Source of the DNA: a bacterium
GTDB taxonomy: Bacteria; Patescibacteriota; Minisyncoccia; UBA6257; 2-01-FULL-56-20
Length of the DNA: 64,000 bases
Direction of reading: 5' to 3'
Assembly (NCBI GenBank): GCA_027310625.1
Contig: DAIDAM010000002.1
Span: forward strand, 65,123-129,122
Shown here: piece by piece, positions 36,548 to 43,369 of the stretch
Position numbering within the stretch: the first letter of the stretch is position 1
How the letters are laid out: each line of letters opens with the position of its first letter
Made by a program: the position numbers and the translations under genes
The notes under the pieces: model-generated
What the model saw: only the letters and a program-made list of their open reading frames with translations
Database searches by the model: none
Told to the model about the DNA's origin: nothing

Positions 36548-39500
36548 ATGTCAAAAATTCTCCCCCTAAAAGATTTTTCAAAGTTCAAGTTGCTCGCCAT
36601 ACCTTCGGATTTCAACGAAATTCAGCTGAAGTCCTATCAGTGGTTCTTGAAAGACGGCATGCGTGAGATCTTGGAGGAGGTTTCTCCGATTCGCGACCAC
36701 ACCGGAAAGGAACTTGAGCTTTACTTTGAGGGTTTTCGTTTTGACAAACCGAAGGCGGACGAAGCAACCGTCGTTTACAAAGACGCGACTTATGAAATTC
36801 CCCTTTACATAAAAGTCCGCCTGGAAAACAAAAAAACGGGAAAGTCCATGGCGCAGGAGATCTATTTGGGAGATTTCCCGGCGATGACGGACAGAGGGAC
36901 CTTTATCATAAACGGAGTGGAAAGAGTCGTCGTTTCCCAGCTTATAAGATCTTCGGGCGTCTACTTCACTTCTTCGCTGTGGCATGACCAGCAGCTTTTC
37001 GGAGCAAAAGTTATTCCCAATCGCGGCGCATGGCTGGAGTTTGAAACGGATGCCGACGGAACGATCGGCGTAAAAATAGACAGAAACAGAAAAGTTCCGG
37101 TAACCGATCTTCTGCGGGTTTTTTCCGCCCAGGGCGGAGGAGTAACCGACGATGTCATAAAGTCAAAATTTCAGGACGCGGACCGCGGGCCGATAAAGTA
37201 TATTGATGCAACTCTTAAAAAAGACGCCGCGAAAAGTTTGGATGAATCATACGTTGAGATTTACAGAAGATTAAGGCCCGGCGACCCCGCCACGCCCGCA
37301 ACCGCAAAAAACCTCGTTGATTCAATATTCCATCGTTTTGAACGCTATGACCTTTCGCCGGTCGGAAGATTCAAACTTAACCAGCGCCTGGGCATAAACT
37401 CCGCCGTGCACGGCGGGGTAAAAAAGACGAAAGAAAACCGTCTCCTTGACCTTGAAGACCTTCTTCTCATCGTCAGGGAAATAATAAGGCTCAACAATAC
37501 CCCGGGAGCGAAACCGGACGACATAGATCATCTCGGCAATCGCCGGTTGAAATCCGTCGGAGAGCTTCTTCAGGGCCGACTCCGTGTTGGGCTCGCGCGT
37601 CTCCGAAGAATAATCCAGGACAGGATGTCGACGCTGGAGAGAGATTCGCTCACCCCGGCTCAGCTTATAAACTTCCGGCCGATTAACGCGGTCGTAAAGG
37701 AGTTCTTCGCATCCTCGCAACTTTCGCAGTTTATGGACCAGGTGAATCCGCTTGCGGAACTGGAACACAAGCGCCGTCTTTCGGCGCTCGGTCCCGGCGG
37801 ACTCCGCAGAGAACACGCCGGATTCGAAGTGCGCGACGTCCACCATTCTTACTACGGAAGAATTTGTCCGATACTTACTCCCGAGGGGACGAACATCGGG
37901 CTCATAAATTATCTCGCCGACTTCGCGCGCGTGAATGACTTCGGTTTTTTGGTGACGCCGTACGTCAAAATCAAAAACGGAAAGATAACCAATGAAATAA
38001 TCTGGCTGGACGCGATTGAAGAGGAAAAACACAAAATTGTCCACGCGACGGCTGAAAGAGACGGCAATAAAATCCTCGGCGACATTCTGGAAGCGCGCTT
38101 CGGCGGCGAGGTCGGAACTTATCCGACCGGCGAAATTGATTTGATGGAGGTTGCCCCTCATCAGTTCGTAAGCATTGCTTCTTCGCTGATTCCTTTTCTT
38201 CAGCACACCGACGCTTCCCGCGCGCTGATGGGTTCCAACATGCAGAGGCAGGCGGTGCCTTCGGTAAAGCCCGCCGCCCCTCATATAATGACCGGGCAGG
38301 AGGAAAAATCCGCCAAGGACTCGGGGTACGTCGTTACCGCCGAAGCCGACGGAAAAGTGACGGCCGTGGACGCTCTTTCCGTTACCGTTCAATACGGAAG
38401 AGAGAAAAAGACCCACAGCCTCACGAAATTCAAGCGCTCCAACCAGTACACATGCATTCTTCAGAGACCCGTTGTTTCGCTTGGCCAGCAGGTGAAAAAA
38501 GGCGATGTTTTGGTTGACGGGCCTTCAACCGACAACGGAATTCTTTCTCTCGGCCAAAACCTTACCGTTGCTTTCATGTCTTGGGAGGGAGCGAATTTTG
38601 AAGACGCGATAATAGTTTCCGAGCGCGTAGTTCGCGACGATCTTTTTACCTCCATACACATAGAAGATTTTTACTGCGATGTCCGCGACACGAAGCTCGG
38701 TCCCGAAATAACGACGCCCGACCTTCCGAACGTTGCGGAAGAAAAACTCAAAAATCTCGACGAGGAAGGAATAATCCGCATCGGCGCCGAGGTCAAAGCG
38801 GGGGACATACTTGTCGGAAAAATTTCTCCCAAAGGGGAAACAGAACTTACCGCCGAGGAGCGGCTTCTCCGCGCGATTTTCGGAGAGAAAGCAAGGGACG
38901 TAAAAGATACGTCCCTCACCCTGCCGCACGGCAAGCGCGGGAGGGTCGTCGGCGTTAAAGTTTTCTCGCGCGACGAGGGCGATAAGCTGGAGGTCGGCGT
39001 GATAAAACGCATTCAGGTTGAAGTTGCGAACCTTCGCAAGGTCCAGTCCGGAGACAAGCTTGCCGGCCGTCACGGGAACAAGGGCGTCATTTCGCAGGTG
39101 CGGCCGATGGAAGATATGCCTTACCTTGAAGACGGAACTCCCGTTGACATAATTTTGAATCCTCTGGGCGTCGTTTCCCGAATGAACCTGGGGCAGATTC
39201 TTGAAACGCATCTTGGGTGGGCGGCTTCGAAAATCGGCTACCGCGCGATTACGCCCGGCCTTGATTCGGCGAAAGAGGAAGAAATACGCGAGGAGCTCAA
39301 GAAGGCAGGCCTCCCGGAGGACGGAAAAGTTACGCTCCGCGACGGGCAGACCGGACAGCCCTTTGACCAGAAGATTACCGTCGGAACGATTTACATGATG
39401 AAGCTCAATCACCTCGTTGAGGACAAAGTGCACATGCGCTCCATCGGTCCTTATTCGCTTATCACGCAGCAGCCGCTCGGCGGCAAGGCGCAGTTCGGAG

Positions 39501-42500: not shown

Positions 42501-43369
42501 TAGCCGCGCAGTCAATCGGCGAGCCGGGAACCCAATTGACTCTCAGAACTTTTCACGTCGGAGGCGTTGCCGGGCTTGACATAACGCACGGACTTCCGAG
42601 GGTTGAAGAGCTTTTTGAAGCGCGCCCGCCGAAGGGAAAAGCTATTCTCTCGTCCGTTGACGGAAAAGTTGAGAAAATAGAGCAAAAAGGCGCACTCAAG
42701 GTGATCAGCGTCGCGCCGAAGGAGAAACGCGGCGCAAAGAAAAAGAAAACCGACAAAAAATTCGTTGAATACTCCGTTTCCCGAGCTGCGCTTCTTTTTG
42801 TGAATGTCGGCGACGAAGTTACGGCCGGGCAGCAGCTCTCGGAAGGCCACGTGGACCTGCAGGAACTTCTCGAATACAAGGGAAGCAAGGAAGTCGTTCG
42901 TTACATACTTAACGAAGTGCAGAAGATTTATTCAGCCGAGGGCGCTTCCATCAACAACAAACATATAGAGGTAATAATCAGACAAATGTTTTCAAGAATC
43001 AGAATAAAGGAGACCGGTGACGCGAGCGACTTCGTTATCGGAGAAATAGTGGATAAATCAAAATTTCTTGAAACGAATCGTGAGCTCAAGAGAAAAGGAA
43101 AACAACCCGCCCGCGCCCAGCAGCTCCTCCTCGGAATAACTAGAGTCGCGCTTTCAACTGAAAGTTTCCTTTCCGCAGCTTCTTTCCAGGATACTTCAAG
43201 AGTTCTTGTTCAGGCCTCGCTTGAGGGACGCGTTGACCCTCTCCGTGGACTTAAAGAGAACGTTATCATCGGTCGCCTTGTTCCGACCGGTGAAACAGCA
43301 AGGAAAAATGTTCGGGAGGAAAGCGATGAAAAAAGCGAAACCGCCGTTGCCGAGTCCGTTGAACTTTGA
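36548..43369 (+). CDS. rpoBC: Fused DNA-directed RNA polymerase beta and beta' subunits (RpoB-RpoC) as one 2273-aa ORF
   Basis: The RpoB region contains [69 protein letters not shown] and ends ...[13 protein letters not shown]. It continues without a stop into RpoC: [86 protein letters not shown], and so on. Confidence 0.85.
   Translation: [2273 protein letters not shown]

What the first reader, a model, noticed from the sequence alone, without database searches (positions are those of the whole stretch)
36548..43369. rpoB and rpoC fused into one 2273-aa reading frame
The RpoB C-terminus (...[13 protein letters not shown]) runs directly into the RpoC N-terminus ([28 protein letters not shown]...) with no stop, no frame shift and no in-frame start near the junction. 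Natural rpoB-rpoC fusions are known in Helicobacter and Wolbachia. It would be notable in this lineage, but it could also come from a single-base assembly error at the junction.
Basis: partly seen in the sequence, partly recalled or inferred. Interest (0 to 1): 0.6.

Follow-up and report, generated by a model that had tools for sequence, protein, structure and literature searches.

The report
Natural fused rpoB-rpoC in Patescibacteria
The two large subunits of RNA polymerase really are encoded as one 2273-residue protein here; the same fusion occurs in every close relative recovered from this group of tiny uncultured bacteria, so it is an inherited trait, not an assembly error, and a further independent case of a fusion already known from Helicobacter and Wolbachia.

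Summary
Observation confirmed. ORF 36548-43369 (+) encodes 2273 aa (253 kDa): a complete RpoB (res 8-1056) and a complete RpoC (res ~1067-2250), with no stop and no frame change.

It is not an assembly error. All 120 best database homologues (68-100% identity; NCBI, JGI, ENA and Logan assemblies; one on a 913-kb contig) are 2240-2322-aa fused proteins. The linker has the same length in most of them and a partly conserved sequence (P-x-Y-[DE]-S-[EP]-x-x-R-[KR]-D-D-F). One homologue recurs exactly on 9 contigs from different samples.

The lineage is Patescibacteria/CPR (Paceibacteria: source labels Liptonbacteria, Ryanbacteria, Paceibacterota). In an NJ tree the fused sequences form one clade (100/100 bootstrap) nested among unfused Patescibacteria. 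Helicobacter is far away (53% identity). The protein falls below the NCBIfam cut-offs of the Helicobacter and Wolbachia RpoBC families. So the fusion arose independently.

The junction looks like a short ~10-aa beta tail joined directly to residue 2 of beta' (loss of stop codon, spacer and start codon).

Most likely function: an ordinary RNA polymerase catalytic core made as one chain, which fixes 1:1 stoichiometry and pre-tethers the two subunits for assembly.

Verdict: real, a new member of a known kind, of modest interest. I found no published description.

The parts
36390..36419 (+). Sigma-70-like promoter candidate (TTGACA-18-TAAGAT, 10/12), about 130 nt upstream of the rpoBC start. It lies just after a perfect hairpin (about 36358-36392) that follows the upstream NUDIX gene.
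   Evidence: This is a consensus match only; function is inferred.
36548..39715 (+). Beta (RpoB) module, residues 1-1056, ending in the conserved ...[16 protein letters not shown].
   Evidence: NCBIfam NF001616 covers residues 8-1056 (profile 4-1093/1096), 1477 bits against a cut-off of 896. Pfam Rpb2 domains 1, 2, 3, 45, 6 and 7 are present. PDB beta chains align up to residues about 1054-1064.
39716..39745 (+). Junction/linker, residues P1057-R1066 ([10 protein letters not shown]). It corresponds to the short C-terminal tail of beta in unfused relatives. No stop codon, spacer or Met follows it.
   Evidence: Junction alignment of 120 fused homologues. Spacing is identical in 92 of the 102 sequences where both anchors were found, with conserved P, Y, R and [KR]. 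Unfused relatives end ...NVEIEETKED* and restart MNDF/MDDF.
39746..43369 (+). Beta' (RpoC) module, residues D1067-L2273 plus the TGA stop. D1067-D-F1069 aligns with residues 2-4 of unfused Patescibacteria beta' (M-D-D-F / M-N-D-F).
   Evidence: TIGR02386 covers residues 1072-2250 (profile 2-1141/1147), 1526 bits against a cut-off of 963.5. Pfam Rpb1 domains 1-5 are present. PDB beta' chains align from residues 1067-1069 onto beta' residues 4-7 (B. subtilis, mycobacteria, Streptomyces and others). Numbering.
39914..39973 (+). Beta' N-terminal Cys4 zinc-binding motif: [20 protein letters not shown] (residues 1123-1142).
   Evidence: Read from the sequence. Three of the four Cys are invariant and the fourth is at least 90% conserved in alignment A1.
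41225..41245 (+). Catalytic Mg-binding motif NADFDGD of beta' (residues 1560-1566).
   Evidence: Read from the sequence. Invariant in alignment A1.
43410..44672 (+). Conserved downstream neighbours rpsF (43410-43823), ssb (43942-44400) and rpsR (44469-44672). The same rpoBC-rpsF-ssb arrangement is found in relatives at 85% and 69% identity.
   Evidence: Pfam S6, SSB and S18. Synteny in L082-L084 and L081.

Best explanation
This is a genuine gene fusion, fixed in the lineage, of rpoB and rpoC in a subclade of Patescibacteria (class Paceibacteria / former Parcubacteria; nearest named relatives are labelled Liptonbacteria and Ryanbacteria). The ancestor had adjacent genes, a very short beta C-terminal tail (6-14 aa) and a very short beta' leader (Met plus 1-3 aa). 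Loss of the rpoB stop codon, the few intergenic bases and the rpoC start codon joined a 10-residue tail ([10 protein letters not shown]) directly to beta' residue 2 (DDF...). The product is inferred to be a single 253-kDa beta-beta' chain that carries every catalytic element of a normal bacterial core enzyme. It would work as an ordinary RNA polymerase in which the two large subunits are permanently tethered. That enforces 1:1 stoichiometry, removes the bimolecular beta + beta' step of core assembly, and removes the intergenic spacer. Shown here: the architecture, its conservation and purifying selection, its confinement to one clade, and its independence from the Helicobacter and Wolbachia fusions. 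Inferred, not shown: translation as one uncleaved polypeptide, and any fitness advantage. The fusion may be nearly neutral, given that engineered fusions are tolerated.
For: One ORF with complete RpoB and RpoC profiles above the curated cut-offs. All 120 best homologue clusters (68-100% identity, 2240-2322 aa) carry both domain sets and come from four independent data sources; some sit on contigs of 300-900 kb. P0002 occurs with an identical sequence on 9 contigs from NCBI, JGI and ENA samples, and P0090 sits on a 913,682-bp contig. Linker length is identical in 92 of 102 anchored sequences, with conserved P/Y/R/[KR]/D-D-F and no Met or stop remnant. In window vs L082, the 50 junction codons show 38 nt differences, 24 of them at third positions, with 17 synonymous and 9 non-synonymous codon changes and the frame kept. 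In an NJ tree on 987 columns with the junction masked, the 32 fused sequences are monophyletic in 100/100 bootstraps, the unfused L002 is sister in 91/100, and all Patescibacteria group together in 99/100. The seven other Patescibacteria loci, plus 115 beta' N-termini of mostly Patescibacteria origin (source labels, where given: Colwell-, Wolfe-, Sung-, Yanofsky-, Nealson-, Azam-, Zambryski- and Nomurabacteria and others), are unfused and at most about 72% identical. Unfused relatives end ...NVEIEETKED* and start MNDF.../MDDF..., so the fused linker is about the sum of tail and leader. The tested Helicobacter locus was correctly called fused (positive control) but is only 53% identical and has an unrelated, longer linker. 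Engineered beta-beta' fusions are functional: a synthetic fusion is cited in bioRxiv 10.1101/2021.11.05.467461, and M. tuberculosis plasmid pMP61 is described in PMC12858399 and bioRxiv 10.64898/2026.04.06.716786.
Against: There is no protein-level evidence that the product stays as one chain. In-frame GTG (39710) and TTG (39680) codons exist near the junction, though they are not conserved and lack a ribosome-binding site. Only 64 kb of the genome is visible, so a second, separate rpoB or rpoC elsewhere cannot be excluded. The denser beta'-only tree (409 columns) is poorly resolved: only P0309 and P0327 intrude into the fused clade in 28 of 60 bootstraps, and further unfused sequences intrude in the rest. 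P0309 looks chimeric and P0327 is an edge fragment. Single origin therefore rests on the longer alignment, which samples few unfused relatives, and on the shared linker motif. The AlphaFold model of the junction region was too poor to test linker geometry.
Confidence: 0.9

Rival explanations
1. Assembly or sequencing artefact: a missing or extra base, or a miscalled stop codon, at the rpoB/rpoC boundary falsely joined two separate genes.
For: MAG contigs can carry indels. In many bacteria rpoB and rpoC are close together, and all 78 unfused loci sampled here happen to be in the same frame. That sample was selected for this arrangement.
Against: The same fused architecture and the same linker occur in all 120 best homologue clusters from independent assemblies and assemblers. 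An identical fused protein sits on 9 contigs from different samples. No remnant of a spacer, stop or Met is present. The linker evolves like coding sequence.
Confidence: 0.01
2. The fused ORF is real, but two proteins are made from it. Beta' would arise either by internal translation initiation near the junction (GTG at 39710 or TTG at 39680) or by proteolytic cleavage of the linker after assembly.
For: In-frame GTG and TTG codons exist 12 and 22 codons upstream of the beta' start. A few clade members have longer, Gly-rich linkers that could be exposed to proteases (P0092, P0080, P0099, P0114). No protein data exist.
Against: Those codon positions are not conserved as start codons (column 14 is Ile in 78 of 92 sequences). 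There is no Shine-Dalgarno-like sequence upstream and no promoter-like site near the junction. From my own knowledge, the Helicobacter fusion is made as one polypeptide (Zakharova et al. 1998/1999; not readable here). Engineered fusions remain intact and active.
Confidence: 0.07
3. The fused gene was acquired horizontally from a lineage already known to have the fusion (Helicobacteraceae or Wolbachia), so it did not arise independently.
For: The best-scoring NCBIfam models for the whole protein are the two RpoBC equivalogs, simply because they cover both halves.
Against: The scores are far below the curated cut-offs: 2206 against 5372 and 2059 against 4632. The protein is about 600 aa shorter than those families. 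Its halves are most similar to unfused Patescibacteria RpoB and RpoC (62-68% over the tree columns) and only 53% identical to Helicobacter. The fused clade nests inside Patescibacteria at 99-100% bootstrap. The linkers are unrelated.
Confidence: 0.01

Closest known systems
Helicobacter / Helicobacteraceae RpoBC (bifunctional beta-beta' subunit; NCBIfam NF007172, profile 2890 positions)
   Same: A single ORF with complete beta followed by complete beta', and no stop. The fusion is fixed in the lineage. The fusion point is beta C-terminus to beta' N-terminus. The Helicobacter muridarum locus L068 was called fused by the same test.
   Different: Independent origin: 53% identity, a different phylum, and a clade nested among unfused Patescibacteria. 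The Helicobacter linker is longer and unrelated (...LDVNVYGDKVDEFGLIKPLVVGEDEKDRPRDF...). This protein is about 600 aa shorter and scores 2206 bits against a family cut-off of 5372. The gene context here is rpoBC-rpsF-ssb-rpsR.
Wolbachia RpoBC (NCBIfam NF011417, profile 2839 positions)
   Same: A natural beta-beta' fusion in a bacterium with a reduced genome and a host-dependent lifestyle.
   Different: The score is 2059 bits against a cut-off of 4632. Wolbachia is an alphaproteobacterium, and this protein is much shorter. No Wolbachia sequence was aligned here directly. The alphaproteobacteria-like fused representatives found have unrelated linkers.
Engineered beta-beta' fusions (E. coli tethered RNAP; M. 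tuberculosis pMP61 'linked rpoBC')
   Same: Covalent beta C-terminus to beta' N-terminus tethering that leaves the enzyme active. This shows the topology is sterically possible and functionally tolerated.
   Different: Those are laboratory constructs with designed linkers. Here the fusion is natural, has a 10-residue native tail as linker, and is conserved across a clade.
Ordinary separate RpoB and RpoC of other Patescibacteria (e.g. L002, P0139/P0136; Colwell-, Wolfe-, Zambryski-, Nomurabacteria)
   Same: The same compact subunits without large lineage-specific insertions. RpoB is about 1070 aa (P0139, P0144) and beta' starts M-[DN]-D-F. The two halves are 62-68% identical over the tree columns.
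   Different: They keep a stop codon, an intergenic spacer of 9 to about 130 nt and a Met start.

Membership tests
Bacterial RNA polymerase beta subunit (RpoB; NCBIfam NF001616 / TIGR02013) | End-to-end match to the equivalog profile above its curated cut-off | tested here: met
   NF001616: 1477.5 bits against 896, residues 8-1056 = profile 4-1093/1096. TIGR02013: 1462.5 bits against 801.
Bacterial RNA polymerase beta subunit (RpoB; NCBIfam NF001616 / TIGR02013) | Full set of Rpb2 domains (1, 2, 3, external-1, 6, 7) in order | tested here: met
   Pfam PF04563, PF04561, PF04565, PF10385, PF00562 and PF04560 at residues 24-1057.
Bacterial RNA polymerase beta' subunit (RpoC; TIGR02386) | End-to-end match to the equivalog profile above its curated cut-off | tested here: met
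   1526.3 bits against 963.5, residues 1072-2250 = profile 2-1141/1147.
Bacterial RNA polymerase beta' subunit (RpoC; TIGR02386) | Catalytic NADFDGD motif and N-terminal Cys4 zinc site | tested here: met
   NADFDGD at residues 1560-1566 is invariant in the 50-sequence alignment. For the Cys4 site at residues 1123-1142, three Cys are invariant and the fourth is at least 90% conserved.
Natural beta-beta' fusion (RpoBC architecture, generic) | One uninterrupted reading frame with complete beta, then complete beta', conserved in related genomes | tested here: met
   ORF 36548-43369. 120 of 120 best homologue clusters are fused. The DNA of L001, L081 and L082-L084 is open across the junction.
Natural beta-beta' fusion (RpoBC architecture, generic) | Product exists as a single polypeptide in cells | not testable with these tools
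   This needs proteomics or purification. No conserved internal start codon or ribosome-binding site was found.
Helicobacter-type RpoBC (NCBIfam NF007172) | Whole-protein score at or above the curated cut-off (5372 bits) | tested here: not met
   2206 bits, matched in 6 separate stretches. The tree places the clade inside Patescibacteria, and identity to Helicobacter is 53%.
Wolbachia-type RpoBC (NCBIfam NF011417) | Whole-protein score at or above the curated cut-off (4632 bits) | tested here: not met
   2059 bits.

The most novel reading that the evidence does not exclude
The beta-beta' fusion is a shared derived character that defines a large subclade of Paceibacteria (CPR). Together with at least 20 other fused 50%-identity clusters that have unrelated linkers, it would show that rpoB-rpoC fusion has arisen many times in bacteria, mostly in small-genome or uncultured lineages, rather than only in the two textbook cases. 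This clade would hold the most compact natural single-chain catalytic core seen here: 253 kDa, a 10-residue linker and no large lineage-specific insertions. That makes it a candidate minimal RNA polymerase for structural work and a simple clade marker.
Probability: 0.55. Interest if true: 0.45.

Novelty: new member of a known kind. Interest (0 to 1): 0.3.

Why it matters
It settles that the long ORF is biology and not an error. Annotation pipelines should therefore not split it, flag it as a frameshift, or label it beta' or beta only, as current records do. It adds an independently evolved, clade-wide example to the short published list of natural beta-beta' fusions (Helicobacteraceae and Wolbachia). 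The example comes from the Candidate Phyla Radiation, whose transcription machinery is essentially unstudied. The tight 10-residue linker, and the fact that its length is about the sum of the ancestral beta tail and beta' leader, give a clear picture of how such fusions arise. In practice, the fusion is a cheap phylogenetic marker for this subclade. It is also a possible trap for single-copy-marker tools that expect rpoB and rpoC on separate proteins. Finally, it is an attractive compact single-chain core enzyme for expression and cryo-EM. It does not change our understanding of how RNA polymerase works.

Tried and rejected
1. AlphaFold2 of window residues 598-1600, using a 50-sequence alignment of fused homologues. 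Mean pLDDT was 48.6 and pTM 0.36, too poor to judge linker geometry. I did not use it and ran no fold search.

2. Genome-contig scan with the 300-aa junction region. They are also biased towards rpoB and rpoC in the same frame. The sample served as a control set but cannot map the clade boundary.

3. The look-up of encoding contigs for the window's own protein returned 'not on record'. The listing of cluster members gave no organism names. The lineage assignment therefore rests on the names carried by homologues.

4. A second homologue search with the beta' N-terminal 442 aa returned only 400-770-aa fragments. They were useful for unfused N-termini but gave no count of fused versus unfused full-length genes.

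5. The beta'-only NJ tree (409 columns) was too weakly resolved to test strict monophyly. One apparent 'unfused' intruder, P0309, is a mosaic: residues about 20-340 are almost identical to fused P0008 and both ends diverge. The other, P0327, is a contig-edge fragment.

6. Literature. Five searches combined rpoB/rpoC/rpoBC or 'RNA polymerase' with fused/fusion and a lineage term (Patescibacteria, CPR, Parcubacteria, candidate phyla radiation). Three found nothing and two found only unrelated papers. Lane & Darst 2010 (PMC2813377) and Zakharova 1999 (PMC93870) are not held, so statements about them come from citing papers or my own knowledge.

7. Considered and rejected: alternative genetic code (no stop of any kind lies in frame, so the code is irrelevant); programmed frameshift or readthrough (not needed); an internal promoter for beta' (none near the junction).

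
Full report
**1. The observation**

The window holds one ORF at 36548..43369 on the + strand: 2273 codons, ATG start, TGA stop. The quoted junction...[41 protein letters not shown]..., sits at residues 1046-1086 (nt 39683-39805). The coding frame is open through it, while both other forward frames carry several stops there.

Pfam finds every Rpb2 domain (residues 24-1057) followed by every Rpb1 domain (residues 1068-2201). NCBIfam matches a complete RpoB (NF001616, residues 8-1056 = profile 4-1093/1096, 1477 bits against a cut-off of 896). It also matches a complete RpoC (TIGR02386, residues 1072-2250 = profile 2-1141/1147, 1526 bits against 963.5). The catalytic NADFDGD (residues 1560-1566) and the beta' Cys4 zinc motif (residues 1123-1142) are present. 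Computed mass is 253.4 kDa.

In-frame TTG (39680) and GTG (39710) codons do exist just upstream of the junction. They have no ribosome-binding-like sequence, and they are not conserved as start codons in relatives.

**2. Artefact or biology?**

A search of 5.8 billion clustered proteins with the whole ORF returned 120 listed clusters, every one of them fused. They are 2240-2322 aa long and 68-100% identical, and carry both the Rpb2 and Rpb1 domain sets. They come from NCBI, JGI, ENA and Logan assemblies, some on contigs of 300-900 kb. The names that sources give them include Candidatus Liptonbacteria, Ryanbacteria, Paceibacterota, Minisyncoccia, Pacebacteria and 'Patescibacteria group'. Most are labelled beta' or 'hypothetical protein', and two beta.

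- One homologue (P0002, 85% identity) occurs with an identical sequence on 9 contigs from NCBI, JGI and ENA samples.
- Another (P0090, 69% identity) lies on a 913,682-bp contig.
- Across the 120 proteins the junction aligns with few gaps.
- In 92 of the 102 sequences where both anchors were found, the spacing is identical.
- The consensus is ...N-I-x-P-x-Y-[DE]-S-[EP]-x-x-R-[KR]-D-D-F..., with no trace of a Met or a stop.

At the DNA level, the 50 junction codons of the window and L082 differ at 38 nucleotides. Of these, 24 are at third codon positions. Seventeen codon changes are synonymous and 9 non-synonymous, and the frame is kept. A single-base assembly error cannot produce this pattern, so the artefact explanation is excluded.

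**3. Lineage and origin**

The window also carries a 23S rRNA with about 1.4 kb of extra sequence and a LAGLIDADG ORF next to it. From my own knowledge of published CPR genomes, such rRNA insertions are typical of the group. That fits the homologue names.

It still gave a useful control set of 80 loci. A frame-aware check found only two of them fused: L001 (a Paceibacterota MAG, about 83% identical) and L068 (Helicobacter muridarum, the expected positive control). The seven other Patescibacteria loci are unfused. They carry source labels Saccharibacteria, Parcubacteria, Zambryskiibacteriota, Paceibacterota and Nomurabacteria. Each has a beta tail, a stop codon, a spacer of 9 to about 130 nt and a Met start.

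I built an NJ tree on 987 columns, covering the beta C-terminal half and the beta' N-terminal half with the junction masked:

| Grouping | Bootstrap support |
|---|---|
| 32 fused sequences monophyletic | 100/100 |
| Unfused L002 as their sister | 91/100 |
| All Patescibacteria loci together | 99/100 |

Identity is 75-95% within the fused clade, 68% to L002 and 53% to Helicobacter.

A second search gave 115 unfused beta' N-termini, mostly from Patescibacteria groups by source label. All are at most about 72% identical to the window, and many begin M-D-D-F, M-N-D-F or M-D-F. A denser beta'-only tree (409 columns) was poorly resolved. Its two 'unfused' intruders are artefacts. P0309 is a mosaic whose middle is nearly identical to a fused protein. 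P0327 is a contig-edge fragment.

Single origin is therefore well supported, though not proven, by two lines of evidence: the longer alignment and the shared linker motif.

**4. How the fusion arose (inferred)**

Close unfused RpoB proteins end ...GLNVEIEETKED*...SIEVKEKPKEK* or ...GIEVKKDKK*. Close unfused RpoC proteins begin MNDFNSIRLKI... or MDDFKSLKLKI....

The fused protein reads ...[23 protein letters not shown].... That is a tail of 10 residues joined straight to beta' residue 2. The only things missing are the stop codon, the spacer and the Met.

In the sister lineage L002, the two genes are in the same frame and separated by TAA plus 9 nt. From such an arrangement, a single stop-codon change would create a fusion. 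Note that the locus sample was biased towards same-frame arrangements.

**5. How it most likely works**

Every functional element of both subunits is intact and under strong conservation, so this is the organism's working RNA polymerase core.

PDB matches show that homology to beta runs to about residues 1054-1064. Homology to beta' starts at residues 1067-1069, which align with beta' residues 4-7 of B. subtilis, mycobacterial and other enzymes. The two termini must therefore lie close together in the folded enzyme.

That is consistent with functional engineered fusions. A synthetic rpoB-rpoC fusion protein is cited. The 'linked rpoBC' M. tuberculosis enzyme is used routinely for biochemistry and cryo-EM.

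The inferred consequences are obligatory 1:1 synthesis, a pre-tethered beta/beta' pair during core assembly, and loss of the spacer between the two genes. Whether this is adaptive in a very small genome or nearly neutral cannot be decided here. From my own knowledge, splitting the Helicobacter fusion is tolerated, which argues for a small effect.

The gene appears to have its own promoter-like site (TTGACA-18-TAAGAT at 36390-36419) after a perfect hairpin. It sits in a conserved rpoBC-rpsF-ssb(-rpsR) arrangement, not in the classical rplKAJL-rpoBC context.

**6. Comparison with what is known**

Natural fusions are published for Helicobacteraceae and Wolbachia (PMC7483510, citing Lane & Darst 2010 and Zakharova et al. 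1999).

The present protein has the same architecture but is not a member of either family. It scores 2206 against 5372 bits for NF007172 and 2059 against 4632 bits for NF011417. It is about 600 aa shorter, has an unrelated and much shorter linker, and is nested among unfused Patescibacteria.

No chain among the best 60 PDB matches spans both halves. Full-text searches combining rpoB/rpoC/rpoBC or 'RNA polymerase' with fused/fusion and Patescibacteria, CPR, Parcubacteria or 'candidate phyla radiation' found nothing relevant. That covers only the open-access library and does not prove the fusion is undescribed.

**7. A wider pattern seen in passing**

An exhaustive HMMER search of 1.84 billion representatives with an 801-aa junction-spanning query collapsed this whole clade into one 50%-identity cluster (P0101). 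It also returned about 20 other representatives longer than 2000 aa that match both halves. Their linkers are unrelated to this one and to each other. Several recur in many assemblies: P0140 has 21 members, P0143 has 12 and P0132 has 6. Some are most similar to Patescibacteria loci and others to alphaproteobacterial loci. Beta-beta' fusion therefore seems to have arisen repeatedly.

**8. Verdict**

It is a new member of a known kind: useful for annotation, as a clade marker and as a compact single-chain enzyme for structural work, but mechanistically unsurprising. Interest 0.3.

Noticed in passing
window 25676-30030 (+), with ORF 30046-30495 (+) and 5S at 31582-31699: The 23S rRNA match spans 4355 nt for a 2925-nt model, so it holds about 1.4 kb of inserted sequence. 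A LAGLIDADG homing-endonuclease ORF (149 aa, PF00961, E 7e-12) starts 16 nt after the reported 23S 3' end. The 5S gene lies a further 1.5 kb downstream, and no 16S gene is in the window. No Rfam group I or II intron was detected at E <= 0.01. From my own knowledge this looks like the rRNA insertions or introns typical of CPR bacteria. The insertion sites were not mapped.
   Followed up: partly
proteins P0121-P0225 (not in the window): About 20 further 50%-identity clusters of proteins longer than 2000 aa carry both beta and beta' halves, with mutually unrelated linkers. Several recur in many assemblies (P0140: 21 members; P0143: 12; P0132: 6). Some are most similar to Patescibacteria loci and others to alphaproteobacterial loci. 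This suggests many independent rpoB-rpoC fusions beyond the two published lineages. Their taxonomy could not be obtained.
   Followed up: partly
window 33422-36310 and 43410-45310: rpoBC is not in the classical rplKAJL-rpoBC-rpsL context. Upstream lie FtsW/RodA, YceG/MltG, an unknown 104-aa ORF (relatives have a HemolysinCabind protein there) and a NUDIX hydrolase. Downstream lie rpsF-ssb-rpsR and then a PAP2 phosphatase. The rpoBC-rpsF-ssb linkage is kept in relatives at 85% and 69% identity.
   Followed up: partly
window 36358-36419: A perfect GC-rich hairpin (ccccgcaccttttgtcgcgacaaaaggtgcgggg) is followed immediately by a strong sigma-70-like promoter match (TTGACA-18-TAAGAT). This is a likely terminator-plus-promoter unit insulating rpoBC from the upstream NUDIX gene.
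   Followed up: no
window 57394-57463 (-): Rfam calls a tRNA here (43 bits) that ARAGORN did not report. It sits next to tRNA-Ile and tRNA-Val at 56860-57112. Two divergently oriented tRNA-Met genes lie at 614-686 (-) and 834-906 (+).
   Followed up: no
protein P0309 (not in the window): This catalogue entry looks like an unfused beta' inside the fused clade, but it is a mosaic. Residues about 20-340 are almost identical to fused P0008, while both ends diverge. It is probably a chimeric assembly, and a caution against using short catalogue genes to infer gene architecture.
   Followed up: yes
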